Shown: positions 11,476 to 31,473 of the stretch, piece by piece
Position numbering within the stretch: position 1 is the stretch's first letter
How the letters are laid out: each line of letters begins with the position of its first letter
Assembly (NCBI GenBank): GCA_022711395.1
Contig: JAKLFA010000001.1
Location: 387,277 to 451,276 of the forward strand
Length of the DNA stretch: 64,000 bases
Direction: 5' to 3'
Source of the DNA: Candidatus Omnitrophota bacterium
Lineage (GTDB): Bacteria > Omnitrophota > Gorgyraeia > Zapsychrales > JANLHA01
Position numbers and translations under genes: made by a program
The notes under the pieces: model-generated
The model's input: the letters and a program-made list of their open reading frames with translations, nothing else
The model's database searches: none
Told to the model about the DNA's origin: nothing

Positions 11476-11733
11476 ATGGGGCAGTTGCCTAAGGGTGTTG
11501 ATGTTGAGGCAGATATCCGCGCGCTGGTCGCCGAGATCCTGGAGGAAGAGCCTGAAAATATTCAGGCTAGCGCCAACTTTATCAAGGACCTGGGAATGGA
11601 TTCGATGATGGCGCTTGAGATCCTCGCCGGGATCGAAAAAAAATATCGCATCGCGATTCCGGAAGAGATGTTGCCGAAGTTCACGGACTTAAACACGACA
11701 GTCAGCTTGGTCAAAGATTTACTATCAAAATAA
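11476..11733 (+). CDS. Acyl carrier protein-like (phosphopantetheine attachment).
   Basis: 85 aa with DLGMDSMMALEI, an ACP-type DSL/DSM serine motif. The N-terminal extension is unusual for a canonical AcpP. Confidence 0.6.
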   Translation: MGQLPKGVDVEADIRALVAEILEEEPENIQASANFIKDLGMDSMMALEILAGIEKKYRIAIPEEMLPKFTDLNTTVSLVKDLLSK

Positions 11734-11758
11734 TCCTAACTGAAAAAGGGAGAAGACC

Positions 11759-15061: not shown

Positions 15062-15135
15062 GGTTTGCATTTATTATATAGATACGTTATACTTTTATTA
15101 CCATTTCAAGCTAAATTGCTTCATCAAGGGGCGCC

Positions 15136-17712: not shown

Positions 17713-17765
17713 TATATCAGGCGCAAGCGTTTTAAAAAATTTTTAAGACGGTAGAAGGAGACCCA

Positions 17766-18029
17766 ATGGATAAAAAGAGATCAAAGACATTTCCGAAGAT
17801 CCAAAAAGATCTTAAATGCTTCCTGGAAAGTGAAGAAGGAAAGATCGTTGAAAAGGACGCCGTGAAGCTCGGCACTGCGATTGTGGCGGCGGGCGTCTTT
17901 TTGGGCAGCTTAGTGGCTCCTGTGGATGATGCCCATAGCGTGACCACGGGCCATTGTCAGCATGCCTCGCACGGAAGCCACGGAAGCCACGGAAGCCACG
18001 GAAGTCATTCGACCGGGGGCTGGTGTTAG
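17766..18029 (+). CDS. HxsA-like precursor peptide with C-terminal His-Xaa-Ser repeats.
   Basis: 87 aa. Charged N-terminal leader, hydrophobic segment LGTAIVAAGVFLGSLVAPV, then CQHASHGSHGSHGSHGSHSTGGWC. Preceded by a GAAGGAGA Shine-Dalgarno (SD) sequence and followed by four radical SAM genes in the same island. Confidence 0.7.
   Translation: MDKKRSKTFPKIQKDLKCFLESEEGKIVEKDAVKLGTAIVAAGVFLGSLVAPVDDAHSVTTGHCQHASHGSHGSHGSHGSHSTGGWC
17966..18005 (+). repeat. Perfect 9-bp tandem repeat (CACGGAAGC)x4 encoding the His-Gly-Ser repeats.
   Basis: Direct reading: cacggaagc cacggaagc cacggaagc cacggaagc cacggaagtcat. Confidence 0.9.
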
Positions 18030-18148
18030 GTTCTGGCGTATGTCCGCCGGGCCTTCAAATGTTTTATCTTCCAGAGCGACATCTTAGTCTAAGAAAAGAA
18101 TCCATGATCAACCCAATCAAGTCTGTAATGAAATATTCTAAAGATCGG

Positions 18149-18188
18149 AATATGACCGTGGTGCAGTCTACGGTCATATTTTAATTTT
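18149..18188 (+). terminator. Intrinsic terminator/attenuator hairpin between the precursor peptide and the downstream rSAM genes.
   Basis: 10-bp perfect stem ATATGACCGT/ACGGTCATAT with a 10-nt loop, followed by TTTTAATTTT. It sits 12 nt upstream of the rSAM start codon. Confidence 0.6.
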
Positions 18189-18199
18189 AAGGAGCGATC

Positions 18200-19627
18200 A
18201 TGCAGGGCCTGGCATCATCTGAGCAAGAGATGAGATTGAGAAGATTGTTCGCGGATCTTTTGATCAAAAAAGGATACGAAAAAGAGGTCTATCTGCTTGA
18301 CCTGAGCGCCTTTTTTAAGAGCCATGGAGTTTACACCTTATCCGAAGTGCAGGACCTTTGGAGAGGGCATTTGTCCAAAGCGGAAGTCTGCCGGCATTAT
18401 TTTTCTCTTTATGTGCACATCCCGTTCTGCCGGAAGCGATGTTCATTTTGCCGGCATTATGAATGGACCTGCAGCAGTGAGAACCAGCTGCGGCTTTATC
18501 TTGATTCGCTGGTCTTTGAGATCCGGGCGTTCAAAGAGATATTTTCTGGTGTTATGTTCAAAAGCCTTTATGTCGGCGGCGGGACGGCGAACATTTTAAG
18601 CCCGGAGCAGATCGATCGTCTTTTGTCAGAGATCGACCTAAATTTTAGATTTGATGATCACGCGGAGAAGACATTTGAATGCAATCCCAATGAGTCCTCC
18701 ATGGAAAAACTATCTGTTTTCGCGGGCCATGGGATCAACCGTGTTTCGTTCGGGGTGCAGAGCTATTCTCAGGATGTTCTGGGATGCACTCATCGCGCTC
18801 ATCAGAGTGAGGAGATGGTCGCCTCAGCCATCAGGGATGCGCAGAGATTCCCGGCTTTTCATAAGATCAATGCGGATCTGTTGATCGGGCTGCATAATGA
18901 CAGCCCGAAAACGGTGTGTGACAGTTTTCTTAAACTTGCGCAACTTGGCACAGGATCGATCTCGCTTTATGCTCTTAAGCCGCCGCTGCATTATATTAAA
19001 AAATATTATCGAGGACGGCAGGACCTCTATGATGAGGCCCTATCGGAAAAATTAAGGGACTTTGAACGCCTGGTCGCGCCGATCACAGAAGAATTTGATT
19101 ATGTTTTTACGCCCCTAAAGGAAATTAGGGCGAACTTTGACGCATGGATGTTCACCCTGCGAAAGAATTATCATACCGGGCGCATCTATAAATATGTGAC
19201 CGCGGAATTCCCGATCGATTGCCTGGGCCTTGGAACAGGCGCGGTCTCGACGATCACGGATCACGCTTTTTACAAGAACCAGAGCTTTACGCCGTCCGCG
19301 CAGGGCGGGACCTTTGAGCAAAACGGCAGATACCGAGGCTGTTTGAAATATGGGCCTAAAGAGCAAAGAGTGTTGTTCATTCTGGGGGAGATCGCCACAT
19401 GGAACCGTATTTCGAAAACCCAATACCGGGGGATGTTCGGATCAGATATTACGGCTGACTTTACGGTTGAACTCGAGCGGCTTTCAGCATTGGGCGTTGT
19501 GAGCCTGACTGACGCGTTCGTTATTTTTGAGAGGAAGAAGCCGGAGGAGAGGTTCTTTTACGCGCTGTTTTTTTTGGACCATAAGATGATCTTTGATGCA
19601 ATGGAAAAACTAAAAACAAAAGTCTGA
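18200..19627 (+). CDS. HemN-like (class C) radical SAM enzyme.
   Basis: YVHIPFCRKRCSFCRHY (HemN-type CxxxCxxC) and LYVGGGT. It immediately follows the Hxs-type precursor peptide. Confidence 0.75.
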   Translation: MQGLASSEQEMRLRRLFADLLIKKGYEKEVYLLDLSAFFKSHGVYTLSEVQDLWRGHLSKAEVCRHYFSLYVHIPFCRKRCSFCRHYEWTCSSENQLRLYLDSLVFEIRAFKEIFSGVMFKSLYVGGGTANILSPEQIDRLLSEIDLNFRFDDHAEKTFECNPNESSMEKLSVFAGHGINRVSFGVQSYSQDVLGCTHRAHQSEEMVASAIRDAQRFPAFHKINADLLIGLHNDSPKTVCDSFLKLAQLGTGSISLYALKPPLHYIKKYYRGRQDLYDEALSEKLRDFERLVAPITEEFDYVFTPLKEIRANFDAWMFTLRKNYHTGRIYKYVTAEFPIDCLGLGTGAVSTITDHAFYKNQSFTPSAQGGTFEQNGRYRGCLKYGPKEQRVLFILGEIATWNRISKTQYRGMFGSDITADFTVELERLSALGVVSLTDAFVIFERKKPEERFFYALFFLDHKMIFDAMEKLKTKV

Positions 19628-19648
19628 TTTCATAAGCGGACGTTCAAG

Positions 19649-21481
19649 ATGCCAGTCGCAAAATCCAAAAATAATTCTGCGGGCGCGGTCCGAAAAAAGG
19701 ACGCCCCCTATGTCATTTCAGCAGCCTATCATTGTAATAACGCGTGCCTGTTCTGTTATAACAAGGGCGGGCAGAATATCCGTCCTCAATTGAGCTTTGA
19801 TGAGATGCTCCGGCAGATCGAACAAGCCGCCGGGGCAGGGTATAAAAAGGTCGCTTTTTTCGGGGGGGAATGCACGGTCGAGCCGTATTTTTTTGATCTG
19901 CTCAAGGTCGCCAAAAAATTCGGTTTAAAGGCCCGGCTGGAAACCAACGGCCAGATGTTCGCAGAGACGGACTTTTTGAGGCGATTGAAAGAATTCGACC
20001 TGGATTCATGCCAGTTTTCTTTTCATACTTATGAGGAATCGGTGCATGATGAGTTGACGCGCAATCCGGGCGGATTCCGCAAGACCGTCAAGGGCATCCT
20101 GAATTTTAAAAAAGCCTTTCCCCATGTCAGGCTGGACAGTTACACCGTGATCACCCGCCGGAACGTGCGTCAATTGTATAAGACGGCCTGTTATCTTCAC
20201 AAATTCTTTGGCGTGCAGGAGGCGTTCTTTTCGTTTTTGATCTCTCCGGCGGAGAGGGAAAATTTTAAGCGCCTCGCCGTTTCGTTCAATGACGCCCGTC
20301 CCTGTTTGCAAAGGGCGCTGGACTATCTTTCTGGCCATAACCTTCCGTTCCGGATCGATAAATGCCCGAAATGCGTATTTCCCCAGTATCACGAGCTTCA
20401 TCATTATGAAAAAGGGGTCTTTGATCCGGATGATTACTGCAAGCATGCGGTCTGTGAAAGCTGTCCGCTTTCTGCGGATTGCCCGGGATTCAGTAAACAA
20501 TACGTGGCTGTTTTCGGATTTGATGGCCTGCGGCTGGGAGGATTTCAGCAGGATGAGCTGAAATATTTTTTTGCCGGGCTGAATATGGGAGCGTTAAAGA
20601 GCGTGAAACGATCGCTGACCTTTGATGAGTTCAACAATCCAGTGCTGAACTTTGAGAGGGAAGAGGGGGGCTGGGAGCAGATCTGCAAAGATGTCAATAT
20701 CCCATTGTGCGCGATTAAAAGCACAGGAAAGCTGATCGACATCTGGAATGATTTTCAATTTACGCCGGAGTTTGTTGAAAAAGCGCTTCGTCAAAACAGA
20801 ACAGTGTCCTGTGAAGATTTATCCAGGGCTGTGTGTCAGCAGTTGAGGAAAGATTTTAAGGCGAAGGTCAGTGAGGAAAATGTCCTTTTGACCGCCGGTT
20901 CCCGTCCGGCGTTGTATGCCGCGTTCCTTGCGCACATAAGGCCGGGCGACCTGGCCGTTCTTAAAGAGGGCATGTGGGACGGCTATCGCTATGGTCTTGA
21001 TCAGACCGGGGGCCGGGTCGTTGAGGTTTCTTCTTACGATGAACTGGAGAATGTCGGTTCGGATGAGCTGCGGCTGGTGATCGTCAACAACCCTCAGCTG
21101 CCTTCCGTGCGCCAGCGGTTGTCTGAAAAGGAAATCAGGAAGCTCATCTCTTTTTGCAATCAGCGGGGAACGTTTTTGCTCGTCGATGAGATCGGTAACC
21201 GCCTTTCTCCTGACCCGTTTTCGGTCCTTTCGCATTGTGATATGTCTAAAGACCGCGTGATCGTGACCCAGTCATTTTCTAAAAATTATTTTATTCCTCA
21301 ATATAAGGCCGGTTATGCGGTGGCGCATCCTGAGATCATTTCAAAGATCAAACGGATCATTGATTTCAGCGGATATCCGATCGCGCCCCGGTCCGTTCAG
21401 GCAGCGCATGCGGTTCTCTGTTCACCTCAGCAGTGGCAGAAAGAAAAGGCCGCCATGATCTATAAAAAAGGGACGTGGTAA
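19649..21481 (+). CDS. Radical SAM domain fused to a C-terminal PLP-dependent class I/II (HisC-like) aminotransferase-fold domain.
   Basis: N-terminal CNNACLFC (CxxxCxxC) with GGE. The C-terminal ~250 aa align to the aminotransferase fold, including SFSKNYFIPQYKAGYAVA. Compare hisC in this window: [18 protein letters not shown], the pyridoxal-Lys motif. Confidence 0.6.
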   Translation: MPVAKSKNNSAGAVRKKDAPYVISAAYHCNNACLFCYNKGGQNIRPQLSFDEMLRQIEQAAGAGYKKVAFFGGECTVEPYFFDLLKVAKKFGLKARLETNGQMFAETDFLRRLKEFDLDSCQFSFHTYEESVHDELTRNPGGFRKTVKGILNFKKAFPHVRLDSYTVITRRNVRQLYKTACYLHKFFGVQEAFFSFLISPAERENFKRLAVSFNDARPCLQRALDYLSGHNLPFRIDKCPKCVFPQYHELHHYEKGVFDPDDYCKHAVCESCPLSADCPGFSKQYVAVFGFDGLRLGGFQQDELKYFFAGLNMGALKSVKRSLTFDEFNNPVLNFEREEGGWEQICKDVNIPLCAIKSTGKLIDIWNDFQFTPEFVEKALRQNRTVSCEDLSRAVCQQLRKDFKAKVSEENVLLTAGSRPALYAAFLAHIRPGDLAVLKEGMWDGYRYGLDQTGGRVVEVSSYDELENVGSDELRLVIVNNPQLPSVRQRLSEKEIRKLISFCNQRGTFLLVDEIGNRLSPDPFSVLSHCDMSKDRVIVTQSFSKNYFIPQYKAGYAVAHPEIISKIKRIIDFSGYPIAPRSVQAAHAVLCSPQQWQKEKAAMIYKKGTW

Positions 21482-21498
21482 AGAGGGCTTTTATGTCT

Positions 21499-23097
21499 TT
21501 AAGGCAGGATCTTGTAGAATGTGTAACGGGCCTTGCCTTGATCGTATGAACGGTATTCTTCCATCCTGTAACTGCTTTTCATGATCCCGCACAATTCCCC
21601 TTCAGCGGCCGACATTTGGCAGATCAGATCATCGAAAAAGAGAACGCAGTCCGTTGAACGCAAGATGTTTCCTCGCTCCGCATGGTTTTCCAGGAAAAAG
21701 CTGAGATCGACCACGTTGAGTTCAGTGGTGGACCGCAGGATCGTTGGGTGGTTGGCAATGATCAGGCAGCCGGAAGGGATGTCTTTTTCCGCCAGCTCCG
21801 GGACGCGGGTCTCCAGCCGGTGTCCGTCACCGCCGAACATCTTTGACACCGGGTCAACGTAAGGGAGGCAGGAGCTTATTAAAAGGCCCACGATGAGAAT
21901 GCGCATGGCCGTTTGCGCGGAAGGCCGTTTGATTTTTTGCGTAAAAAAGACCAAGCCCTCAGAGAGCGCCGATGCGGCAAAAATGCCCAGGACAGGGTAA
22001 AAACTGAGAACGATCCGCCCCTTTCCCAGCAGGGCGTCTTCGCCGCCCAGGGTCTTTATCCAAGAGGAGAAATAGGCGGCCCACCAAAAGACGAGCCACA
22101 GGCACAGGAATGAAAATATTTTTCGGTCCTTGATGAGGAGCAGGATAGCCCCGATAAGCGAAAGAAAAGAGAAAAGAAGCGGCTGCATGGATCCGTTAAA
22201 AATGGAGATGCCGTAATGCCGTGTGTTGTAAAACAAATTTTGGAGGCTCCAGTTGGCTCCGCGGATGCCGGTATATTCTGCGACCTCGCTGAAGTTCAGG
22301 GAGGAATAATAATGAAGGACTTGCGCGAGATTGGGCAGGCTTAAGGCAATAAACAGCAGCCAGGCGAAGACGTATGATACAGGAGGCGTTACGTTGTTTT
22401 TTTCTCCCAGGATCCAGTTTCCCGCCGGGAACAAAAGAAAAAGGATATAATTTTCCGGCCTGAATTGTGCCGCAAGGCATATCGCAGACAGGGAGAGCCA
22501 AAAAAAGGCGCGGGTCTTTTTTTGAAAATAAAGAGAACATGCCGTTACGGCCAGGCAGACCATGAAGAGTGAAACGACATTGGTTTCGGCTGTGGCCGAC
22601 CAGCGGATATGGATCGGCTGAAGGCCTATCAGCAGAGCGGCAAAGATGGCTGTTGTTTTTTTATTCGTGATGGCAAAGGTCAGAAAAAACACTGCAGCGG
22701 CTGAAAGAGCCCCGATAACGATCATCCCGTAAAGCGCGACCCAGTTGTTGGTTCCGAACACGAAAAAAAATGAGCTTAAGAGAAAAGGCCAGCCGATCGA
22801 TTTGGGATAATCCCCCGAGTGGCCTGTTTGCAGGATGTGTTTGGCTGCCTCCATATACCATGGTTCATCCAAATACATCACATGCTGGATCGGCGGGACC
22901 AAAAGGCGCAAGGCGAGAGAAAAGAGAACAATGACGGCAAGCCATCCATAAGCAGCGCCGCCGGCCTTTGACGCGAACTCCGAGAGATTTTTACGGTTCT
23001 GAGCGAGCAGAAATAAAAAGATGATCCATGAGAACAGGGCGCATGCCGGGATGGCGGCGGAAAGAGTTTCGGCTATGGAGCGTAAGAACATTGTCAT
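21499..23097 (-). CDS. Polytopic membrane protein, GT-C-fold glycosyltransferase-like (ArnT/PMT family-like).
   Basis: At least 12 TM helices and a first-loop acidic motif …HVMYLDEPWYMEAAKHI… resembling the GT-C DE/DD motif. Function is inferred from architecture. Confidence 0.45.
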   Translation of the reverse strand: MTMFLRSIAETLSAAIPACALFSWIIFLFLLAQNRKNLSEFASKAGGAAYGWLAVIVLFSLALRLLVPPIQHVMYLDEPWYMEAAKHILQTGHSGDYPKSIGWPFLLSSFFFVFGTNNWVALYGMIVIGALSAAAVFFLTFAITNKKTTAIFAALLIGLQPIHIRWSATAETNVVSLFMVCLAVTACSLYFQKKTRAFFWLSLSAICLAAQFRPENYILFLLFPAGNWILGEKNNVTPPVSYVFAWLLFIALSLPNLAQVLHYYSSLNFSEVAEYTGIRGANWSLQNLFYNTRHYGISIFNGSMQPLLFSFLSLIGAILLLIKDRKIFSFLCLWLVFWWAAYFSSWIKTLGGEDALLGKGRIVLSFYPVLGIFAASALSEGLVFFTQKIKRPSAQTAMRILIVGLLISSCLPYVDPVSKMFGGDGHRLETRVPELAEKDIPSGCLIIANHPTILRSTTELNVVDLSFFLENHAERGNILRSTDCVLFFDDLICQMSAAEGELCGIMKSSYRMEEYRSYDQGKARYTFYKILP

Positions 23098-23121
23098 TTG
23101 AAGATCCTTCGTCCTATTATT

Positions 23122-24060
23122 TTAACGGAAGTAGATCCCTAATGAATCGCCTTCCCAGGTCAGGTAAGAAACGGCTCCGCCGCATTGCTTTAAATATTGC
23201 TTAGAGCTGTCCCACCACGTCAAAAGATGCTCGTCTTTAAAATTAAAGACTGGAAGTTCAGGGGCTGGCAGCGCCGTTTCCAAACGGGCCCAGATCTTGG
23301 TTGAAGAGACCGAGGCCTCCGGTGTGATGCGGTGCAGATATCCGATGTGGCGCAAAGGCATTTGTTTGACCCAGAGTAAAAATGGGGTGAGGAACGCAGA
23401 TCCGTCCCTTGAGCATTGATGGATGATCTCGTCATAGAACGCATCATGAAACGGGGCGGATGAATACGGGTAGATCTTTAAAGAACAATTGCCGCTCGGT
23501 CCGAAGTCTATTCCGATGGCGTCCAGCGTTATTCCTGAAATAAGCGTCTTTAACGCGGCCCGATTGATCCGCAGATCTTCAGCGATCGAAAGGAGAGAGT
23601 CGTCCGCTTTATGACAGGTGTTGATCAGGCTGATGTATGTTTTTAGCAAAAGGCGGCCGTCCTTATTAAGAGTGAAGCCAAACTGCATCGGCCAGTTGGT
23701 TTTTGAAATGGATTTGAAGGCTCCTTCAAGGATATGGACCTGTTGTTGCGTTAATGTTGGTTCCTGCTTTGAAAGAATATGCAGGGCGCGGTAGATCTCA
23801 AAAAAACGCTCTTTGCAGAGGGCCTGTTGGAATTCAAAAGGTCGGTCCGCGTCAAAGAAGCGCAAGTGGAGGAGCCGAAGGTCATCCGTTTTTGAGCTCA
23901 GCGAGAATTCAAAGATGCCCGATTGGGAAGAAAGCGCAGTGCCGGGTTTTTCCAGCAGCTTAAACAGGGAGCTGAAATCCAGCGGCGGGATGTTCCAGTG
24001 TTTTGTCAGGTCTGTGATGAAACGTTTTGCTTGGGAGCTGTCCATGGCTGATAAGGTCAA
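23122..24060 (-). CDS. Hypothetical protein (312 aa) in the rSAM island.
   Basis: Long ORF with coding-like composition, translationally coupled to the upstream rSAM (4-nt overlap). I recognise no family. Confidence 0.45.
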   Translation of the reverse strand: MTLSAMDSSQAKRFITDLTKHWNIPPLDFSSLFKLLEKPGTALSSQSGIFEFSLSSKTDDLRLLHLRFFDADRPFEFQQALCKERFFEIYRALHILSKQEPTLTQQQVHILEGAFKSISKTNWPMQFGFTLNKDGRLLLKTYISLINTCHKADDSLLSIAEDLRINRAALKTLISGITLDAIGIDFGPSGNCSLKIYPYSSAPFHDAFYDEIIHQCSRDGSAFLTPFLLWVKQMPLRHIGYLHRITPEASVSSTKIWARLETALPAPELPVFNFKDEHLLTWWDSSKQYLKQCGGAVSYLTWEGDSLGIYFR

Positions 24061-25208
24061 TATTGATAAAGTTGGATGAACCGCGGATCATATTTTAACG
24101 CGGACTTGATCTTTAAGAAAGTTCGGACATAGATTTTGGAGATACAGCAGAAAGCCGTGTAAAGACGCCGGCTTTGGACGGCGCGTTCGGTCTCGAATGT
24201 CTTTGTGTAGAGGAGATGTCCGATCGGGCAGAAACAATATTTATAGATGGAGCACTCTGAGCACTCGAGCCCGGATTCGGCGGTGAATTCATCGCGCAAT
24301 TTTTTCAGTAAACGCAGGCGTTTATCGTCATCGATCCCTTCGCAGGCGTTTCCGATGGCGTAGTCTTTTCGCATGGCGGGGTCAAGAGAGAAGACTTTGT
24401 CGCAGACATAGAATTGCTGATCGTTCCCGAAAGAGAGCTTTCCGCAGCGTTCCATTTTATCGACCTCGATCCCGTTGACGAGCGTGTCAAGAAATGCGTT
24501 CTTAAAGACCGGGGCGTTACGTTGAAACAGCTCGATATAATAGCGTTCAAAATCTTCAAAGGATCTTTCCATGGACCGCAGGTCGTTCGTGTTCCAGTGG
24601 GCGTATTGGTCAGGATAGAATTCGATCGAATAAAAATCCTTGGCGCTTAAAAAGCGGATATTGTCCAGAAGACGGCTCACGTTTTGTGGGGTGAACACCA
24701 TCGCGGCGGAAAGTCTGAAGGTGGTGCCGAGGCGCTCCATGTTCCGCATGATCGCATCAAAGCTGGACCGGTCAGGGTTGTTGCGGAATGGGCGGTTCTC
24801 ATCATGGGTCAGTTTGTCGCCATCGATGCTGATCTTGATGATGGTGTCTTCTTTGGCGATCGAGCGGAGGATGTCCTTATCCAGGAGGGTGCCGTTGCTG
24901 ATGATCGCCACATCTAAGCGGGTCTTGTTTTCCTGGGCTTTTTTTCGGGCGTAGTCGCAGAGCGCTCTTAAAAGTCCGATCTCAAGGGTCGGCTCGCTGC
25001 CGTTAAAACTTAAGGTCTTGTGTTTTCCGGGATAGCTGAAGAGCAGGTCGATCGATCGTTTCAAGGATTCTTCATCATCCGGAGAATGCTTGAAATCCGT
25101 CTTTTTTAGGAAGCAGTATTTACAGTCGAGGTTGCATTGGCCGGTGAAAAAGAAATTCAGCGTGGACGGCGAGTCGTGGGGGATTATGGGGTTATTCGGA
25201 TCTCTCAT
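24057..25208 (-). CDS. Radical SAM/SPASM-domain protein (anaerobic sulfatase-maturase-like); HxsB/HxsC candidate.
   Basis: Start revised to ATG 25208 (MRDPNNPII…). The ORF-track N-terminal 74 aa are low-complexity and would overlap the upstream gene by 238 nt. CNLDCKYC lies near the N-terminus. The C-terminus has Cys clusters (CEGIDDDKRL…CSECSIYKYCFCPIGH…). Confidence 0.7.
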   Translation of the reverse strand: MRDPNNPIIPHDSPSTLNFFFTGQCNLDCKYCFLKKTDFKHSPDDEESLKRSIDLLFSYPGKHKTLSFNGSEPTLEIGLLRALCDYARKKAQENKTRLDVAIISNGTLLDKDILRSIAKEDTIIKISIDGDKLTHDENRPFRNNPDRSSFDAIMRNMERLGTTFRLSAAMVFTPQNVSRLLDNIRFLSAKDFYSIEFYPDQYAHWNTNDLRSMERSFEDFERYYIELFQRNAPVFKNAFLDTLVNGIEVDKMERCGKLSFGNDQQFYVCDKVFSLDPAMRKDYAIGNACEGIDDDKRLRLLKKLRDEFTAESGLECSECSIYKYCFCPIGHLLYTKTFETERAVQSRRLYTAFCCISKIYVRTFLKIKSALKYDPRFIQLYQY

Positions 25209-26691
25209 AGAGATGAGCGGCCATCCGCCGGAACCAGTCGTCGAAGACGGCCCGTATTTTTTTGTTCTTGAGCTTTTTGAACAGATGATCAAAGATCGCC
25301 ATTTTGATCTTGCAGCTGTCTGTCGCCGGGATCTGGGGGAAGAGATTGCCGTATTCCACGAAATTGACCAGCGGGCAGACGCCGCAGTATGGTTTGTAAG
25401 CACAGTCTGAGCAGCTGGCCTGGTTATCAAGGCAAGATGAGATGCATAGCGTCTTCGTGACTTCGTTGTCGATCAGGTCGCTAAACCGGCTGGTATTGAC
25501 ATGTCCGATCTGAAAATTCCCGTAACCCATACGGCTGGACATCCGCCCTTCATCGCAGGAATAGATCGCGCCGTCGTAGTTGAAGGCCATTTGGCCGATG
25601 CTGGCGCCGCAAGGATTGCGCATATCATAAAAACAGGGGTCATCGTTCTTGAGGATCTTGGACAAAGCAAAAAAAGCGTTACGTTCCAGTATGAACGTGC
25701 CCTTCGAATTCAACTCCAGGATATAATCCAGCGCGCGCTTGTAAAAGGTGATGAACTTTTCGGATTTATAGCTGATGAGTTTGTGTGTTTTGCGCTCCAG
25801 GCCGAACGGATTGAGCGGGCGCAGGAAAATGTTATTGAATCCCAGGGAAATATATTCATCAATGATCTCTTTGGCGTAGGGAAGCGAGAATTTTGTGATG
25901 GTCGTGATGGCGTTGAGCTGGTCAATGAATTGAGAAGGGGAACCTTTACGCTTTTGCCGGATGGCCGCATTGATCTTTTTGATCTGCTTGACAACGATGG
26001 CATGGCTTTTACCGGAACCGAGAAATGGCCGGTTTTTGTCGTGCACTTCAGCTGGTCCATCCAGCGAGGTGACGATGCTCACGTTATGATCGAGCAGGAA
26101 CTTGAGCTTTTCATCATCCATCAGGATGAGGTTGGAGATCACCGTGAGCTTAAGCCGTTTTTTATGGATCTCGGCCATGTTTTGAGAATATCCGACCATA
26201 TATTGCAGGACCGGCCAATTCAATAACGGCTCTCCTCCCTGGAATTCGATATGGACATTTTGTGAAGGCCCTTGAAAAATAAGGTCCAGCGCCTTTTTGG
26301 CGGTCGCCTCATCCATGTCATAACCATGCGTGTCGCAGGTTTCCGGAGTGGATTGGCAGTAAAGGCAGCGTTGGTTGCAACGCAAGGTCAGGATGATCAG
26401 GAAAAGCGAGGGGCCCCGGTAAGCGGAGTTGTGAAGGCGGAGGTACTTTGAGGCCTGCTCAGCCAGTTTGTTTCGGTCGGTCCGGTCGATGTCAATGAAC
26501 TGTTTGTCCCGTAGCTCTTGATAGAGCGGTTCATCTTTTGTAATGGAATTTTCAAGCAAACGCTTGAAATCCACCTGGTCCAGGCAGGCCCAATCGCCGC
26601 AGTCATTGGTAACGATGTAATCGTTGTTGACCCTGCGGAAACGGATATTGCCCAGGTGAGAACAGGTGGCTGCTTTTTTAGGGTTGCGCAT
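25192..26691 (-). CDS. Radical SAM/SPASM-domain protein with a ~110-aa N-terminal extension; HxsB/HxsC candidate.
   Basis: Start revised to ATG 26691 (MRNPKK…); the upstream ORF-track residues are low-complexity. CNQRCLYC lies ~110 aa in from the start. The C-terminus has SPASM-like Cys clusters (…CISSCLDNQASCSDCAYKPYCGVCP…). Confidence 0.65.
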   Translation of the reverse strand: MRNPKKAATCSHLGNIRFRRVNNDYIVTNDCGDWACLDQVDFKRLLENSITKDEPLYQELRDKQFIDIDRTDRNKLAEQASKYLRLHNSAYRGPSLFLIILTLRCNQRCLYCQSTPETCDTHGYDMDEATAKKALDLIFQGPSQNVHIEFQGGEPLLNWPVLQYMVGYSQNMAEIHKKRLKLTVISNLILMDDEKLKFLLDHNVSIVTSLDGPAEVHDKNRPFLGSGKSHAIVVKQIKKINAAIRQKRKGSPSQFIDQLNAITTITKFSLPYAKEIIDEYISLGFNNIFLRPLNPFGLERKTHKLISYKSEKFITFYKRALDYILELNSKGTFILERNAFFALSKILKNDDPCFYDMRNPCGASIGQMAFNYDGAIYSCDEGRMSSRMGYGNFQIGHVNTSRFSDLIDNEVTKTLCISSCLDNQASCSDCAYKPYCGVCPLVNFVEYGNLFPQIPATDSCKIKMAIFDHLFKKLKNKKIRAVFDDWFRRMAAHLYERSE

Positions 26692-26896
26692 GGGCGATCT
26701 CGAGATAGAGGACATAGTTTTTGAACTCACTGATAAAGATTTCTGCGTCGTCCAATTGTCCGTCGTCATCAACGGAGACATGGAAATACTGCCCCTTTGA
26801 GCGGATCTCAAACTTGCCGAAATCCTTGAATTGTTCAAAGGCGGCTTCAATGTGCGCTTGTGAGTATAAATTTTTATGAAAAGGGATTGTCAGCAT
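26678..26896 (-). CDS. Small hypothetical protein (72 aa) immediately upstream of the SPASM rSAM pair; possible accessory protein or second substrate.
   Basis: Tight spacing: 2 nt after the upstream gene and a 14-nt overlap with the downstream rSAM. I have no family assignment. Confidence 0.4.
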   Translation of the reverse strand: MLTIPFHKNLYSQAHIEAAFEQFKDFGKFEIRSKGQYFHVSVDDDGQLDDAEIFISEFKNYVLYLEIAHAQP

Positions 26897-26897
26897 T

Positions 26898-27401
26898 TTA
26901 CTGCAAAGGTCTTTTTATGTTCAACGGATCTTCTTCGTAGGTTCCCGCAGAAAAATCTTCCTGCTCCAGTTCTTTCTTGAGAGCTTCGATCTCCTGTTCG
27001 ATCTTTTTGATGTCATCCTCATCACTGTTGGCGCGTGAAGGTTCTTGCGGCCCTTTGGATGAGGAGGGAAGGGCGGCGTTAATGGCCCCTCCAACGATAT
27101 ATTCAATGATCGTTTTATTTTTTTGGGCGATCTCTTTGCGGACGGATGCATTGAGAAGTTCATTCAAGAATTCATTGCGGAGCGCTTCGAGCTGCTTTTT
27201 GGTTGATCGTGTCTTTGTTTTCAACAAGACGGTGAACTCATCTTTTTTCGGGGCGTCGATATAAACATAGACTTTGTCTACGATGATGTAGCAAGCCTTT
27301 AAAAGGACCTCTTTGGGATAGATTTTAGGATGAACGGAGAAGACAATCTCTGAATCCTTCGTGTTAATCCGTGTTTTGCTGGATTTTTCGAAATTATTCA
27401 T
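26898..27401 (-). CDS. Hypothetical protein (167 aa) with an acidic coiled-coil C-terminus; HxsD-like candidate.
   Basis: First gene of the minus-strand rSAM operon. Contains …FLNELLNASVRKE…, loosely reminiscent of the LLNDYxLRE motif I recall for HxsD. This similarity is weak. Confidence 0.4.
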   Translation of the reverse strand: MNNFEKSSKTRINTKDSEIVFSVHPKIYPKEVLLKACYIIVDKVYVYIDAPKKDEFTVLLKTKTRSTKKQLEALRNEFLNELLNASVRKEIAQKNKTIIEYIVGGAINAALPSSSKGPQEPSRANSDEDDIKKIEQEIEALKKELEQEDFSAGTYEEDPLNIKRPLQ

Positions 27402-29381: not shown

Positions 29382-30329
29382 TTAAGGAGAAGGGGTGATA
29401 TTGGTTCTCGGTGGAGCGTTGCCCTTCTGCTGTTTGACGAACTCCCTTGCCTGATAGACCAGTTCCCGGCATTTGTTGAAGTCGACCTCATGAAAATCCC
29501 TGATCTTGTAACAGTAGGACACGGGGTCATCCGGGCCATTGGGGTCAAGGGTCCCAACGACAGCCAAGGGGATCGCGTATGCCTTATAGCACTGATTTTC
29601 AGTGTAATGGCGGATGATCTTTTTTTCAACACTGCTTGGATCGACCAAAGTTTCGCACTGGAGGCGCAGCATGTCATCCCGGATGCTGATCTTGCTGCAC
29701 TCATTGATATCTTTTGTTTTGAACGCCCGGTAAAGCGTGAAGCCTTCCACGCAGTATTTTCGCCCGTCAGACCCTTCTTCAAAATTGTCCAGGCAGGCAT
29801 TGATCCCGGCCGGTGTCGTGACGGCCAGGCAGATCGAATAGGAAACCCGTTTATCTTCCTCGGTGCTGTCATCGAAGATTTGGTTTTTCAGGAACGAATC
29901 GCAGAGAGAAGGGTCCTTGTAAAAGATCACGTGGGCCATGCGGACGCTTTTTGACCTTAAGTTCAGTTTTTGGGCGTCCTCAAGGAATTTTTGGAGGTCT
30001 TTTTCCGTCTTAAGGTGGAACATGATCGATTGCAGACAAAGACGCTTAATATCATCACTCCATGTTTTGTTGTCACAGGTGCCGGTCTTGGCTTGATGGA
30101 GGATCACTTGATATTCCTGGTCCTGGTAGGAGTTGCCGAATTTGGGCAGTTGGCCGCGCGTGGCCAAAGATGTGCACTCATCAATATAGCTTTGGGATTT
30201 TTTCTGAACGTCAGAGAACTTCTGCCCTTTGAAATTATCCAGGGTCATGTCCAGGACGGTCTGAGCATGGATCGTTTGGGAAACAAGGGTAAGAAGCGCG
30301 CTGATCAAAAAGATTCGGAGGGTCTTCAT
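29382..30329 (-). CDS. Secreted Cys-containing protein (signal peptide MKTLRIFLISALLTLVSQTIHAQ), function unknown.
   Basis: Clear Sec signal peptide and about 12 Cys. It is divergent from the tandem rSAM operon. Confidence 0.5.
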   Translation of the reverse strand: MKTLRIFLISALLTLVSQTIHAQTVLDMTLDNFKGQKFSDVQKKSQSYIDECTSLATRGQLPKFGNSYQDQEYQVILHQAKTGTCDNKTWSDDIKRLCLQSIMFHLKTEKDLQKFLEDAQKLNLRSKSVRMAHVIFYKDPSLCDSFLKNQIFDDSTEEDKRVSYSICLAVTTPAGINACLDNFEEGSDGRKYCVEGFTLYRAFKTKDINECSKISIRDDMLRLQCETLVDPSSVEKKIIRHYTENQCYKAYAIPLAVVGTLDPNGPDDPVSYCYKIRDFHEVDFNKCRELVYQAREFVKQQKGNAPPRTNITPSP

Positions 30330-30576: not shown

Positions 30577-31473
30577 ATGAAAAAAGCGGATATCAAAACC
30601 GGGTTTTTATGCAATTCCAACTGCCGTTTCTGCGTTCAGGGTGACCTCAAAAAGGCCCTTGGCAATAAATCGGCTGCTGAGCTTAAAGAGATCATCAAGG
30701 AGGCCAGCCGCGACTGCGGGATCCTGGTCTTTACCGGAGGGGAAGTGTGCGTGCGGGAGGATATTCTTGAGCTTGTCGCGTATGCCCGGCAATTCCCTTT
30801 TCACACAATACAGATCCAATCCAACGGCCGTGTGTTTATGGACGAGCGTTTTTGCGCGGACGTGATCTCCGCCGGGGCCAATGAGTTCGCCCTGGCGCTT
30901 CACGGCCATACGCCGGAACTTCATGATTATCTGACCCAAAGCGCCGGCTTTAAACAGACGATCCGCGGCATTCGGAATTTAAAAAAACTCGGCCAGCGTG
31001 TTCTTGTGAACACGGTGGTGACCAAACCAAATTACCGCCACCTGCCGGATATTACAAAATTGCTGATCAGCCTGGATGTTGACCAGATGCAGCTGGCCTT
31101 TGTGCACGCGCTGGGTTCGGCCGCATTGAATTTTGAAAGCATGGTCCCGCGACTGACGCTGGTGATGCCCTATGTCATCCGAAGTATCGTGATCGCCCGT
31201 CATTTTGACAGGCAGATCGTCACGGAGGCTATTCCGTATTGTTTTCTTAAAGGTTATGAAGGGCATGTTTCCGAGCAGGTCATGCCTATCATGAAGATCT
31301 TTGAACATGATCATGTTGTGGCCAACTTCACGGAATCCAGGTTGACCGAGGGCAAGCTGAAAGGCCCGGATTGTCCGCAATGCGCTTATTACGAGGCATG
31401 TGAAGGATCGTGGAAAGAATATCCCCAAGCCTTCGGATGGGATGAATTCGTGCCGGTGAGCAGGGAACGATGA
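30577..31473 (+). CDS. Radical SAM protein (small, ~300 aa), first of three tandem paralogs.
   Basis: CNSNCRFC at residues 12–19, GGE motif (FTGGEV), C-terminal CPQCAYYEACEG. Confidence 0.75.
   Translation: MKKADIKTGFLCNSNCRFCVQGDLKKALGNKSAAELKEIIKEASRDCGILVFTGGEVCVREDILELVAYARQFPFHTIQIQSNGRVFMDERFCADVISAGANEFALALHGHTPELHDYLTQSAGFKQTIRGIRNLKKLGQRVLVNTVVTKPNYRHLPDITKLLISLDVDQMQLAFVHALGSAALNFESMVPRLTLVMPYVIRSIVIARHFDRQIVTEAIPYCFLKGYEGHVSEQVMPIMKIFEHDHVVANFTESRLTEGKLKGPDCPQCAYYEACEGSWKEYPQAFGWDEFVPVSRER

What the first reader, a model, noticed from the sequence alone, without database searches (positions are those of the whole stretch)
17766..18029. His-Gly-Ser repeat precursor peptide (HxsA-like) embedded among radical SAM enzymes
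The 87-aa ORF ends in SHGSHGSHGSHGSHS flanked by two Cys (…GHCQHAS…GGWC). It carries a charged leader and a mid-peptide hydrophobic segment. It is preceded by a strong Shine-Dalgarno (SD) sequence and followed by four radical SAM genes in the same island. This fits the His-Xaa-Ser (Hxs) peptide-modification family. As I recall, that family is defined only from genome context (HxsA precursor, SPASM rSAMs HxsB/HxsC, HxsD) and its chemistry is unknown. Being in what looks like a non-proteobacterial anaerobe would extend the family's range.
Basis: partly seen in the sequence, partly recalled or inferred. Interest (0 to 1): 0.85.

Follow-up and report, generated by a model that had tools for sequence, protein, structure and literature searches.

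The report
Small HxsA-like peptide, seven-rSAM island
An 87-residue membrane-targeted peptide with His-Gly-Ser repeats lies in a 17-kb island of an uncultured Omnitrophota genome, alongside true HxsB/HxsD maturases, six more radical SAM enzymes, a prenyltransferase-fold protein and a prepilin-type peptidase; it is an undescribed relative of the HXS anti-phage system characterised in 2026.

Summary
ORF 17766-18029 (+) encodes an 87-aa peptide with a basic leader, one hydrophobic helix and a C-(HxS)5-HST-GGWC tail. It has a Shine-Dalgarno site, and the HGS run is a perfect 9-nt DNA tandem.

The Hxs reading holds at system level. HxsB, HxsD and an HxsD-like protein pass NCBIfam cut-offs. The peptide narrowly misses HxsA3 (50.5 vs 65 bits) over its leader, helix and repeats. 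Four radical SAM (rSAM) enzymes are HxsC-like but below cut-off.

The island (17766-34521) holds seven rSAM genes, not four. It also holds an ABBA-prenyltransferase-fold protein, a GT-C glycosyltransferase and a GxGD (A24) peptidase.

This gene set recurs around homologous peptides in dozens of Omnitrophota, CPR-labelled and Elusimicrobiota metagenome loci. A PapB-like SPASM enzyme occurs in 10/10 loci whose peptide ends GGWC and in 0/14 others.

Canonical HXS is now a characterised anti-phage system, with a +8 Da change in an HxS repeat. NCBI already names this locus's HxsB and HxsD.

My best model is cytoplasmic rSAM maturation, then N-in/C-out membrane insertion, then leader removal by the A24 peptidase. 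The product would be an envelope-anchored, modified His-rich peptide. Its chemistry and function remain untested. This is a new variant of a known kind.

The parts
17766..18029 (+). Precursor peptide (87 aa): basic leader with the K..LK.FL.SEEGK motif, a hydrophobic helix (aa 35-53), then the core C-(HxS)5-HST-GGWC
   Evidence: NCBIfam HxsA3 scores 50.5 bits over residues 9-82, below the cut-off of 65. Family alignments A1/A2. Residue frequencies over 248 members.
17970..18004 (+). Perfect 9-nt tandem repeat (CACGGAAGC x3.9) that encodes the HGS units
18200..19627 (+). HemN-like radical SAM enzyme (475 aa), of the family that includes class C rSAM methyltransferases; a tailoring candidate
   Evidence: HemN 140.9, HemW 131 and ChuW/HutW 123 bits, all below cut-off. 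Cx3Cx2C at residue 77 and a GGGTA motif. 71% identical orthologue in the same position in L028. HemN-like genes recur in L005, L008, L017, L019, L020 and L027.
19649..21481 (+). Fusion protein (610 aa): HxsC-like radical SAM domain (aa 1-~300) plus a fold-type-I aminotransferase-like PLP domain (aa ~375-607) that lacks the C-terminal small domain
   Evidence: HxsC 90.9 and HxsC4 82.5 bits; Pfam Radical_SAM and Aminotran_1_2. Only 4 clusters among 5.8 billion proteins; the three full-length ones are 609-610 aa. SFSKNYF, NNPQLPS and DEIG are invariant.
21499..23097 (-). GT-C (PMT_2-like) polytopic membrane glycosyltransferase; a candidate periplasmic-face glycosylase
   Evidence: Pfam PMT_2 30.7 bits, cut-off 26.1. 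49-50% identical orthologues in L027 and L028. Also present in L094 and L101.
23122..24060 (-). ABBA aromatic-prenyltransferase-fold protein (307-312 aa); no sequence-family hit
   Evidence: AlphaFold2 model with pLDDT 77 and pTM 0.77, built of five alpha-beta-beta-alpha units. All top 50 Foldseek PDB matches are ABBA prenyltransferases, TM 0.45-0.64. Faint Trp_DMAT hits in 2 of 6 homologues.
24057..25208 (-). PapB-like radical SAM/SPASM enzyme (383 aa), specific to loci whose peptide ends GGWC
   Evidence: PapB 155 bits, cut-off 340. An orthologue is present in 10/10 GGWC loci and 0/14 other loci that have HxsB.
25192..26691 (-). HxsB radical SAM/SPASM maturase (499 aa)
   Evidence: TIGR03978 494.3 bits, cut-off 370. 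34% identity over 473 aa to canonical Aeromonas HxsB. Named HxsB in NCBI as HSA31249.1.
26678..26896 (-). HxsD-like protein (72 aa)
   Evidence: NF038315 63.4 bits, cut-off 41.
26898..27401 (-). HxsD (167 aa, with an acidic C-terminal extension)
   Evidence: TIGR03976 56.7 bits, cut-off 50. Named HxsD in NCBI.
29382..30329 (-). Secreted Cys-rich protein (315 aa, N-terminal signal-like sequence). Weak homologue of the gene that directly follows the peptide in related loci
   Evidence: BLASTP E 1.7e-8 (L008), 3.2e-8 (L013) and 3.9e-5 (L014). The single-sequence model was too poor to use.
30577..31473 (+). HxsC-like radical SAM enzyme R298; the window protein closest to canonical HxsC
   Evidence: HxsC4 150.9 and HxsC 100.5 bits. 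Best window hit of canonical HxsC, 23% identity and E 1.7e-12. 54-73% identical orthologues in L005, L008, L011, L019, L020 and L027.
31470..32606 (+). HxsC/MoaA-like radical SAM enzyme R378
   Evidence: HxsC 96.4 bits. 50-63% identical orthologues.
32612..33547 (+). HxsC-like radical SAM enzyme R311
   Evidence: HxsC 86.9 bits as best hit. 55-68% identical orthologues.
33544..34521 (+). A24-family (prepilin-type, GxGD) aspartyl peptidase (325 aa). Its start overlaps the R311 stop by 4 nt
   Evidence: Pfam Peptidase_A24 33.5 bits, cut-off 26.5. The catalytic Asp and W[PS]AGD[AS]K are invariant in 8 orthologues. Found in Hxs-like loci L008, L012, L019-L023 and L025-L027. Reverse search.
18148..18180 (+). 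15-bp hairpin followed by a U-rich tract, between the peptide gene and the next gene; a possible attenuator (weak evidence)
   Evidence: z = -3.07 for the 186-nt region. Not flagged by the terminator scan. Not conserved in L028.

Best explanation
The ORF is the precursor of a variant His-Xaa-Ser (Hxs) maturation system of a Candidatus Omnitrophota bacterium. What is shown: homology of HxsB, HxsD and HxsD-like above curated cut-offs; a conserved peptide family; conserved co-location of the gene set. What is inferred is the following sequence of steps. The invariant leader motif (K..LK.FL.SEEGK) holds the newly made peptide on the cytoplasmic maturases. HxsB, with HxsD/HxsD-like and the HxsC-like paralogues (R298, R378, R311 and the PLP-fused one), modifies His/Ser in the HxS repeats. 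By homology this would be the same kind of change as the +8 Da (+C/-4H) mark of canonical HxsA. The PapB-like SPASM enzyme makes a Cys-dependent cross-link involving the GGWC end. The HemN-like rSAM, the PLP domain and the ABBA prenyltransferase-fold protein add lineage-specific tailoring; prenylation of the conserved C-terminal Trp or of His is a candidate. The peptide then inserts N-in/C-out through its single hydrophobic helix. The co-encoded A24 (GxGD) peptidase removes the leader at the small residue just before the helix (after Gly36; alternatively after Gly25). The GT-C enzyme may glycosylate the exposed tail. The product would be a roughly 50-residue, heavily modified, His-rich peptide anchored in the inner membrane and facing the periplasm. 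Its role is not established. I favour an envelope function (metal, redox or nucleic-acid binding) that is part of normal physiology rather than a mobile defence island.
For: System membership: HxsB 494.3/370, HxsD 56.7/50, HxsD-like 63.4/41. All of the peptide's family hits are Hxs models, and the HxsA3 match spans leader to repeats. Canonical Aeromonas HxsB is 34% identical, and canonical HxsC hits R298 best.

Real peptide family: 722 homologues at E<=1e-3. Frequencies over 248 members are F16 97%, L17 95%, E20 97%, E21 91% and G22 93%.

Synteny from the peptide side: the order HxsD, HxsD-like, HxsB, [SPASM383], peptide recurs in L005, L008 and L011-L014 (L017 and L019 keep it without SPASM383), and the tail R298-R378-R311-A24 recurs in whole or in part in L005, L008, L012, L019, L020 and L027, despite rearrangements.

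Synteny from the peptidase side: 62/80 A24-centred metagenome loci carry HxsC-like rSAMs (30/33 of those >=10 kb). 14/33 hold a leader-HMM hit, and every such hit has HxS repeats.

The SPASM383 orthologue is present in 10/10 GGWC loci and 0/14 others.

A24 looks active: the catalytic Asp and the GxGD-type motif are invariant.

Prepilin-like site: the position before the helix is G 70%, A 20%, S 4%, T 3%, with K at -3. Then +1 is hydrophobic, +2 is S/A/G/T and +3 is Leu in 62%. In L021 and L025 the A24 gene directly follows the peptide gene.

Topology: the first 18 residues are strongly basic, and the hydrophobic segment has Kyte-Doolittle means above 2.

Tailoring: ABBA prenyltransferase fold. 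PLP motifs are invariant in the fusion. All seven rSAMs keep Cx3Cx2C.

Genomic setting: housekeeping flanks and uniform GC.

In canonical HXS, HxsB, HxsC and HxsD are needed for N-terminal processing and export of HxsA (PMC13128918).
Against: No step of the mechanism has been tested. No mass, topology or cleavage data exist for any member of this subfamily.

The peptide and its closest relatives miss every HxsA cut-off (about 50 vs 65 bits). No window rSAM reaches the HxsC cut-off.

The peptide lacks Glu+5 and has no N_methyl match, so it is not a canonical type IV prepilin.

Many members also have a signal-peptidase-I-like V-x-A site after the helix, for example DVQA|xC. That would release a soluble peptide instead.

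Canonical G|FTLIE pilins lie within 10 kb in 10/80 A24-centred loci and in L025, so the A24 enzyme could simply be the cell's prepilin peptidase.

Only 14/33 long A24-centred loci show the peptide within 10 kb.

In the window the peptide gene is 6.7 kb from hxsB and on the other strand.

rSAM modification before membrane translocation of a cross-linked tail is an assumption.

The loci in the co-occurrence counts are not phylogenetically independent.
Confidence: 0.55

Rival explanations
1. Same maturation, but the product works like canonical HXS: an envelope-located HxS array that blocks entry of phage DNA. On this reading it is a small-effector version of the known anti-phage system.
For: HxsB and HxsD are true family members. 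In E. coli the HxS repeats are the functional element, the matured effector must reach the periplasm, and it binds DNA (PMC13128918). The peptide here is also predicted to expose its HxS tail outside the cytoplasm.
Against: There is no peptidoglycan-binding domain. The tail is only about 35 residues and has no Arg or Lys. Canonical repeats are HRS/HSS-rich and basic; here they are HGS. Canonical systems sit on conjugative plasmids beside restriction-modification and Tn7-like genes. This island lies between SMC/FabV and DnaG/RpoD with uniform GC. PADLOC gave no defence-specific hit, only generic viperin-rSAM similarity, although PADLOC 2023 predates HXS. Six extra rSAMs, a prenyltransferase-fold protein and a GT-C enzyme have no counterpart in the four-gene defence system.
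Confidence: 0.2
2. The hydrophobic segment is the core of a long Sec signal peptide cleaved by signal peptidase I. The product is a soluble, secreted 25-35-residue RiPP (C-(HxS)n-GGWC), for example a metallophore or antimicrobial. On this reading the A24 peptidase is unrelated or only clears the signal remnant.
For: Many family members have A-x-A-like sites right after the helix, such as DVQA|EC, DVNA|AC and AQA|Q. The core starts with a conserved Cys just after that site. His-rich tails are typical metal ligands (own knowledge).
Against: The window peptide itself has a poor site (PVDDA|HS). The 34-residue conserved leader is far longer than a Sec n-region. The A24 subfamily is tied to these rSAM clusters (30/33 long loci), and its gene directly follows the peptide gene in L021 and L025. 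No exporter or leader-cleaving C39-type ABC transporter is present in the island.
Confidence: 0.17
3. The peptide is a minimal pilin-like subunit. After A24 cleavage it is assembled or displayed by type IV pilus/T2SS-like machinery, giving a filament or pseudopilus decorated with modified HxS tails.
For: The leader/helix layout and size resemble Flp-type prepilins (own knowledge). The site is a small residue followed by I/L-S/T-L, like G|FTL. In L025 the peptide-A24 pair is followed directly by five G|FTLIE pilins, PilM, PilO and a secretin. Pilin-like ORFs lie near 10/80 A24-centred loci.
Against: Glu+5, which is needed for pilin assembly (own knowledge, Strom & Lory 1991), is absent from the family. 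No assembly ATPase or platform gene is found in the window island or in most related loci. There is no N_methyl Pfam hit.
Confidence: 0.06
4. The ORF is a chance or unrelated small His-rich membrane protein, and the neighbouring rSAM enzymes act on something else.
For: The peptide misses all curated HxsA cut-offs. In the window it is not adjacent to hxsB.
Against: In relatives the homologous peptide gene sits directly after HxsB/SPASM383. Leader residues are 91-97% conserved over 248 sequences. The C-terminal motif co-varies with one specific enzyme.
Confidence: 0.02

Closest known systems
Canonical HXS anti-phage system (HxsD-HxsB-HxsC-HxsA) of Pseudomonadota; PMC13128918, TIGR03976-03979
   Same: It shares an HxsB orthologue (34% identity, above the model cut-off), HxsD above cut-off, HxsC-like rSAMs with a C-terminal CxxCx5C motif, and a substrate with tandem His-Xaa-Ser repeats and an N-terminal export/anchor segment. 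In relatives the gene order is D-B-(rSAM)-A.
   Different: The substrate is 87 aa rather than about 190-214 aa and has no peptidoglycan-binding domain. It has a conserved 34-residue leader before the hydrophobic segment, HGS rather than basic HRS/HSS repeats, and a GGWC end. There are two HxsD-type proteins. There is no HxsC equivalog, but four HxsC-like paralogues. Added components are a PapB-like SPASM enzyme, a HemN-like rSAM, a PLP fusion, an ABBA prenyltransferase-fold protein, a GT-C enzyme and an A24 peptidase. The setting is chromosomal and housekeeping in Omnitrophota rather than plasmid or defence-island.
NCBIfam HxsA3 (NF038309) and HxsA4 (NF038313) small His-Xaa-Ser repeat proteins, with HxsC4 (NF038332) and HxsD_rel (NF038315)
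   Same: They share the same architecture of leader, helix and HxS repeats at about 80-95 aa. The HxsA3 model aligns to residues 9-82. HxsD_rel is passed. Relatives P0025, P0054 and P0072 pass HxsA4, and their loci also carry many rSAMs.
   Different: The window peptide and its closest relatives P0001-P0003 (all three GGWC-ending members scanned) score about 50 bits, below the HxsA3 cut-off of 65. R298 scores 151 against the HxsC4 cut-off of 500. I found no publication on these model families.
Type IV / Flp prepilins and their A24 (PilD/TadV/FlaK) GxGD peptidases
   Same: Both have a basic leader, a small residue, then a roughly 20-residue hydrophobic helix. A co-encoded A24 peptidase keeps both catalytic Asp motifs. 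The +1 to +4 residues resemble F-T-L-I.
   Different: The leader is 34-36 residues long and carries its own conserved motif. There is no Glu+5, no N_methyl match, and usually no pilus assembly genes. The peptidase has an extra, unassigned C-terminal region of about 200 residues.
PapB-type ranthipeptide and other SPASM Cys-thioether maturases
   Same: The best family hit of the 383-aa SPASM enzyme is PapB. Its presence tracks Cys-containing GGWC cores.
   Different: It scores 155 bits against a cut-off of 340. The core has no CxxxD/E motifs, and the acceptor residue is unknown.
ABBA peptide/indole prenyltransferases (DMATS/CymD, cyanobactin PatF/PagF family, NphB)
   Same: The predicted five-unit alpha-beta-beta-alpha barrel matches them exclusively. 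The substrate family carries a conserved C-terminal Trp.
   Different: There is no detectable sequence similarity (faint Trp_DMAT hits only). No catalytic residues were checked. Activity is untested.

Membership tests
His-Xaa-Ser (Hxs) system | HxsB radical SAM/SPASM maturase (TIGR03978) | tested here: met
   494.3 bits against a cut-off of 370. 34% identity over 473 aa to Aeromonas HxsB.
His-Xaa-Ser (Hxs) system | HxsD (TIGR03976, LLNDYxLRE family) | tested here: met
   The 167-aa protein scores 56.7 against a cut-off of 50. The 72-aa protein scores 63.4 against a cut-off of 41 for HxsD_rel.
His-Xaa-Ser (Hxs) system | HxsC radical SAM maturase (TIGR03977) at equivalog level | tested here: not met
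   Best scores are 100.5 (R298), 96.4 (R378), 90.9 (fusion) and 86.9 (R311) against a cut-off of 267.9. HxsC4 scores 150.9 against 500. Canonical HxsC does hit R298 best, so these are paralogue-level relatives.
His-Xaa-Ser (Hxs) system | Substrate with tandem His-Xaa-Ser repeats | tested here: met
   Five HxS units plus HST, encoded partly by a perfect 9-nt tandem.
His-Xaa-Ser (Hxs) system | Substrate passes a curated HxsA model (HxsA, A2, A3 or A4) | tested here: not met
   HxsA3 50.5/65, HxsA4 35.3/55, HxsA 22.6/121.65. HxsA2 does not appear among the peptide's hits at E<=0.01. The closest relatives also score about 50 bits.
His-Xaa-Ser (Hxs) system | Clustered order hxsD-hxsB-hxsC-hxsA | tested here: inconclusive
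   In the window the peptide is 6.7 kb from hxsB and on the opposite strand. Relatives have the colinear order HxsD, HxsD-like, HxsB, SPASM383, peptide.
Canonical HXS anti-phage effector (PMC13128918) | [quoted passage not shown] | tested here: not met
   The peptide is 87 aa with no Pfam domain. Canonical HxsA is 192 aa with a C-terminal PG-binding region and shows no BLAST similarity.
Canonical HXS anti-phage effector (PMC13128918) | +8 Da modification in an HxS repeat, and protection against phage | not testable with these tools
   This needs MS of the matured peptide and phage challenge assays.
Type IV / class III (prepilin-type) signal peptide substrates | Co-encoded A24 peptidase with both catalytic Asp motifs | tested here: met
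   Pfam A24 33.5 bits against a cut-off of 26.5. The catalytic Asp and W[PS]AGD[AS]K are invariant. Association shown.
Type IV / class III (prepilin-type) signal peptide substrates | Basic leader, then Gly (or a small residue) at -1, then a hydrophobic helix | tested here: met
   The -1 position is G 70%, A 20%, S 4%, T 3% over 248 members, with K at -3 in 74%. In the window this reads VKLG36|TAIVAAG.
Type IV / class III (prepilin-type) signal peptide substrates | Glu at +5 and an N_methyl (PF07963) motif | tested here: not met
   The +5 position is A/I/V/L. There is no Pfam hit.
RiPP precursor with rSAM/SPASM maturase | Conserved leader and variable core, encoded beside the maturases | tested here: met
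   Leader residues are 91-97% conserved. The core varies in repeat number and ending. Adjacency in relatives is shown.
ABBA aromatic prenyltransferases (for ORF 23122-24060) | PT-barrel fold of five alpha-beta-beta-alpha units | tested here: met
   Model pLDDT 77. All top 50 PDB matches are ABBA prenyltransferases.
ABBA aromatic prenyltransferases (for ORF 23122-24060) | Diphosphate-binding residues and prenyl-transfer activity | not tested
   No active-site comparison was done. Activity needs an enzyme assay.

The most novel reading that the evidence does not exclude
These loci may define an undescribed class of envelope peptides found in MAGs labelled Omnitrophota, candidate-phyla-radiation (CPR) lineages and Elusimicrobiota. 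The precursors would combine a RiPP-style recognition leader with a prepilin-like (class III) signal. Up to seven or more radical SAM enzymes (HxsB plus an expanded HxsC family), with lineage-specific prenyl-, glycosyl- and PLP-dependent tailoring, would rebuild the C-terminal HxS tail. A dedicated GxGD peptidase would then release the product into the membrane. It would be a lipid- or helix-anchored, cross-linked poly-His array with a physiological role (metal or redox handling, or cell-cell or host attachment) rather than phage defence.
Probability: 0.3. Interest if true: 0.8.

Novelty: new variant of a known kind. Interest (0 to 1): 0.62.

Why it matters
The chemistry of the Hxs modification is still unsolved. 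The 2026 study could localise a +8 Da change but could not reconstitute it, because E. coli HxsA is insoluble when overexpressed and the enzymes are scarce. A short natural substrate with four or five clean HGS units and true HxsB/HxsD partners gives an alternative route to that chemistry.

The variant also shows that the Hxs enzymes are not confined to a four-gene proteobacterial defence module. The 2026 paper counted 99.7% of HxsA proteins in Pseudomonadota. In uncultured Omnitrophota and in MAGs labelled CPR, the same enzymes sit at the centre of 15-20-kb clusters with expanded HxsC families, a PLP-fused rSAM, a prenyltransferase-fold protein and a prepilin-type peptidase.

The strict pairing of a PapB-like enzyme with GGWC-ending cores is a directly testable enzyme-substrate prediction. 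Coupling RiPP-type maturation to class-III-signal processing would be a new export logic for modified peptides.

Tried and rejected
1. The first scan of genome contigs with the 50-sequence alignment failed because no block was conserved enough. I repeated it with 14 close sequences.

2. PADLOC returned only generic viperin-rSAM similarity. The library dates from 2023 and predates HXS, so this is uninformative.

3. The consensus promoter/terminator scan found nothing near the peptide gene. A 15-bp hairpin seen by RNA folding is not conserved in the closest relative, so I do not rely on it.

4. Rfam found no riboswitch near the island.

5. A single-sequence AlphaFold model of the secreted 315-aa protein had pLDDT 57, so I did not search with it.

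6. A sequence-profile search of the PDB with the 312-aa protein family found nothing. Only the fold search was informative.

7. I rejected the 858-aa ORF upstream (15136-17712) as part of the system. It has no family hits, no homologue in related loci, and is split in L028.

8. I rejected the idea that the 383-aa SPASM enzyme in the 'HxsC position' is HxsC. Canonical HxsC hits it at only E 4e-3, against 1.7e-12 for R298.

9. I looked for signs of recent acquisition. GC is uniform at 0.47-0.52 and there is no flanking tRNA or mobile-element gene.

10. P0064 is an orphan peptide with no Hxs genes within 10 kb. No DNA was available for the P0054 locus.

11. Literature searches found no description of the small-HxsA variant or of rSAM clusters linked to prepilin peptidase.
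Full report
**Observation**

It encodes 87 residues:

MDKKRSKTFPKIQKDLKCFLESEEGKIVEKDAVKLGTAIVAAGVFLGSLVAPVDDAHSVTTGHCQHASHGSHGSHGSHGSHSTGGWC

- GAAGGAG ends 7 nt before the ATG.
- The HGS run is encoded by a perfect 9-nt tandem, CACGGAAGC x3.9, at 17970-18004.
- Residues 1-34 are highly charged (10 K/R, 7 D/E), and the first 18 residues are strongly basic.
- Residues 35-53 form one hydrophobic segment, with Kyte-Doolittle 15-mer means up to 2.26.
- The tail has five HxS units plus HST, bracketed by Cys64 and the C-terminal Cys87.
- The exact peptide is called on 15 public contigs.

**Organism and setting**

The window matches JGI metagenome 3300010429, contig Ga0116241_10000026 (547 kb). Identical proteins are deposited under Candidatus Omnitrophota MAGs.

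The flanks are housekeeping genes. On one side lie ETF, acyl-CoA dehydrogenase, FabV, ACP and SMC. On the other lie a GGDEF protein, CvpA, DnaG and RpoD. GC content is uniform at 0.47-0.52. No tRNA or mobile-element gene borders the island.

**The Hxs test**

| Protein | Coordinates | Model | Score / cut-off |
|---|---|---|---|
| 499-aa rSAM/SPASM | 25192-26691 (-) | HxsB, TIGR03978 | 494.3 / 370 |
| 167 aa | 26898-27401 (-) | HxsD, TIGR03976 | 56.7 / 50 |
| 72 aa | 26678-26896 (-) | HxsD_rel, NF038315 | 63.4 / 41 |
| Peptide | 17766-18029 (+) | HxsA3 | 50.5 / 65 |
| Peptide | 17766-18029 (+) | HxsA4 | 35.3 / 55 |
| Peptide | 17766-18029 (+) | HxsA | 22.6 / 121.65 |

- All of the peptide's NCBIfam hits are Hxs models. 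The HxsA3 match covers residues 9-82, so it includes the leader and helix. The match to canonical HxsA covers only the repeats.
- The closest relatives P0001-P0003 also score about 50 bits against HxsA3. More distant members P0025, P0054 and P0072 pass HxsA4.
- Four rSAMs have HxsC or HxsC4 as best or near-best hit, all far below cut-off: R298 at 30577-31473, R378 at 31470-32606, R311 at 32612-33547, and the N-terminal half of 19649-21481.
- I also compared a canonical locus, Aeromonas salmonicida pAsa4 (hxsD-B-C-A). HxsB is 34% identical over 473 residues. Canonical HxsC hits R298 best (E 1.7e-12), then R378 (4e-9), then the fusion and R311 (about 1e-5). The SPASM enzyme next to HxsB scores only 4e-3. 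Canonical HxsA is 192 aa with a signal peptide, HRS/HSS repeats and a PG-binding region, and shows no similarity to the 87-aa peptide.

**What else is in the island**

There are seven rSAM genes in all, each with an intact Cx3Cx2C motif.

- **HemN-like rSAM (18200-19627).** It scores below all cut-offs.
- **HxsC-like rSAM fused to a PLP domain (19649-21481).** The PLP domain is aminotransferase-like and fold-type I. SFSKNYF, NNPQLPS and DEIG are invariant, and the C-terminal small domain is absent. The fusion is very rare: four clusters among 5.8 billion proteins, and the three full-length ones are 609-610 aa.
- **PapB-like SPASM enzyme (24057-25208).** It scores 155 bits against a cut-off of 340.
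- **HxsB** and the three HxsC-like genes make up the rest.
- **312-aa protein (23122-24060).** It has no sequence-family hit. Its AlphaFold2 model (pLDDT 77, pTM 0.77) is a five-unit alpha-beta-beta-alpha barrel. All top 50 PDB matches are ABBA aromatic prenyltransferases, including IptA, CymD, CdpNPT, NphB, AmbP1, CloQ and PatF, with TM 0.45-0.64.
- **GT-C/PMT_2-like membrane glycosyltransferase (21499-23097)**.
- **A24-family peptidase (33544-34521).** Its start overlaps the R311 stop by 4 nt. The catalytic Asp and a W[PS]AGD[AS]K (GxGD-type) motif are invariant across eight orthologues.

**The peptide family**

Word-based search found 132 clusters. A full profile search of 1.84 billion representatives found 722 proteins at E<=1e-3 and 167 at E<=1e-10. 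Nearly all of those listed are 65-160 aa.

Conservation over 248 members, in profile numbering:

| Position | Residue frequency |
|---|---|
| 7 | P 82% |
| 10, 11 | K 84%, K 89% |
| 16, 17 | F 97%, L 95% |
| 20, 21 | E 97%, E 91% |
| 22 | G 93% (A 6%) |
| 23 | K 72% |
| 31 | K 74% |
| 33 (just before the hydrophobic run) | G 70%, A 20%, S 4%, T 3% |

After position 33 come a hydrophobic residue, then S/A/G/T, then Leu (62%). There is no Glu at +5.

The cores vary. Repeat numbers run from about 2 to more than 60 HxS units; L015 has a 524-aa example. The endings are GGWC, GQW, SW or SY.

**Synteny from the peptide side**

In MAGs labelled Omnitrophota, Parcubacteria, Moraniibacteriota, Saccharibacteria, Microgenomates and Elusimicrobiota, the core order is HxsD, HxsD-like, HxsB, [SPASM383], peptide. 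These are the record labels, and I did not verify them.

A tail of R298-R378-R311-A24 recurs, in whole or in part, at 50-73% identity for the rSAMs. Between the core and the tail lies a variable set of further rSAMs (HemN-like, B12-dependent, SPASM), plus YcaO or diphthamide-synthase-like genes.

Two close relatives carry the rare fusion:
- L028 repeats the window's peptide-HemN-like-fusion arrangement, with a peptide 79.5% identical to the window's.
- L027 has GT-C, R298, two R298-like genes, the fusion, R378, R311, A24 and HemN-like genes, all on one strand.

The window therefore looks like a rearranged version of one gene set, organised as three transcription units:
- 17766-21481 (+)
- 30329-21499 (-)
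- 30577-34521 (+)

**Synteny from the peptidase side**

Scanning metagenome contigs with the A24 alignment gave 356 relatives, and 80 loci were kept.

- 62 of the 80 loci carry HxsC-like rSAM neighbours. Among loci of at least 10 kb the figure is 30 of 33.
- 14 of those 33 contain a hit to an HMM built from the leader and helix only. Every such hit has HxS repeats.
- In L021 and L025 the A24 gene directly follows the peptide gene.
- One caveat: canonical G|FTLIE pilin ORFs lie within 10 kb in 10 of the 80 loci. In L025 a full pilin/PilM/PilO/secretin set follows.

**An enzyme-substrate co-variation**

I considered loci that contain both HxsB and a peptide. An orthologue of the 383-aa SPASM enzyme (269-358 bits, 41-45% identity) is present in 10 of 10 loci whose peptide ends GGWC. 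It is absent from 14 of 14 loci with other endings, where the best hit is at most 95 bits. The loci are not phylogenetically independent. Even so, the split is complete and points to a Cys/GGWC-directed reaction.

**Literature**

Canonical HXS was characterised in 2026 (PMC13128918).

- It is a four-gene anti-phage system that blocks phage DNA entry.
- A +8 Da (+C/-4H-type) change maps to SHRSS in the last repeat.
- 99.7% of the HxsA proteins surveyed were in Pseudomonadota.
- The chemistry could not be reconstituted.

I found nothing on the small-HxsA variant, on these Omnitrophota clusters, or on rSAM clusters linked to prepilin peptidase.

**Interpretation**

*Shown:*
- It is a real, conserved peptide family.
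- True HxsB and HxsD are present.
- HxsC-like paralogues are present.
- A conserved accessory set includes an apparently active A24 peptidase.
- One enzyme co-varies with the core's C-terminus.

*Inferred:*
- The conserved leader docks the precursor on the cytoplasmic maturases.
- The HxS units receive the Hxs-type modification.
- The SPASM enzyme cross-links through Cys.
- The HemN-like enzyme, the PLP domain and the prenyltransferase-fold protein tailor the product.
- The helix inserts N-in/C-out.
- The A24 enzyme cuts at the small residue before the helix, after G36 or alternatively after G25.

Glu+5 is dispensable for prepilin cleavage but needed for pilus assembly (own knowledge, Strom & Lory 1991). 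Its absence therefore fits a product that is cleaved but not assembled, and so stays membrane-anchored. A GT-C enzyme in the cluster fits a tail exposed outside the cytoplasm.

*Rivals:*
- The product has an HXS-like anti-phage role.
- Signal peptidase I releases a soluble secreted RiPP.
- The product is a true pilin-like subunit.

Function is open. The housekeeping context, the uniform GC and the size of the enzyme set make me lean away from a mobile defence module, but only weakly.

**Verdict**

Two of its premises are outdated. The locus is a new variant of a known kind. Database models and NCBI annotation already partly recognise it, but the literature does not describe it. It offers concrete, testable predictions about a chemistry that is still unsolved.

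Noticed in passing
window 28269-28592 (-) and 28546-29472 (-): A 107-aa ORF is a PEP-utilizers mobile (swivel-His) domain (Pfam 28.8 bits). It overlaps by 47 nt a 308-aa ORF with no family hit. Together they may be a split or frameshifted PEP-synthase/rifampicin-phosphotransferase-like kinase inside the minus-strand Hxs operon. No homologue was seen in the related loci.
   Followed up: partly
L025 (GCA_041643015.1) 8694-20255: HxsD, HxsD-like, a 211-aa gene, the HxS peptide and an A24 peptidase are followed directly by five G|FTLIE pilin genes, PilM, PilO and a secretin. This locus has no clear HxsB within 10 kb upstream.
   Followed up: partly
L015 (CAZMCB010000006.1) 10007-11581: A 524-aa protein has the same leader and helix, followed by a very long run of HxS units (more than 60). 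The family therefore includes large proteins as well as peptides.
   Followed up: no
L065 2361-3174: Two tandem precursor paralogues with Cys-containing HxS cores sit in one locus.
   Followed up: no
L026 (JGI Ga0212088_10000174) 3374-19515: This Hxs-like cluster also carries Aminotran_5, a stand-alone Aminotran_1_2 (weakly similar to the window fusion's PLP domain), a TP_methylase, and a NifH-fused nitrogenase-like (Oxidored_nitro) pair.
   Followed up: no
window 18148-18180 (+): A 15-bp hairpin followed by UUUAAUUUU lies between the peptide gene and the HemN-like gene (region z = -3.07). It is not conserved in the closest relative, L028.
   Followed up: yes
window 15136-17712 (+): An 858-aa ORF directly upstream of the peptide has no Pfam or NCBIfam hit. 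In L028 it is represented by two ORFs of 520 and 511 aa. It is not found in other Hxs-like loci.
   Followed up: partly
window 42509-42915 (+); 41175-41358 (+): Bacterial RNase P class A RNA (143.6 bits), and tRNA-Met and tRNA-Val genes.
   Followed up: no
window 27539-28303 (-): A 254-aa predicted membrane protein lies just upstream of hxsD on the same strand. It has no family hit and no homologue in related loci.
   Followed up: no
L024 (ERZ795390 NODE_102) 10001-10330: An orphan HxsA4-like peptide (P0064, ending RGGWC) has no HxsB or HxsD within 10 kb. Some precursors are therefore encoded away from their maturases.
   Followed up: no
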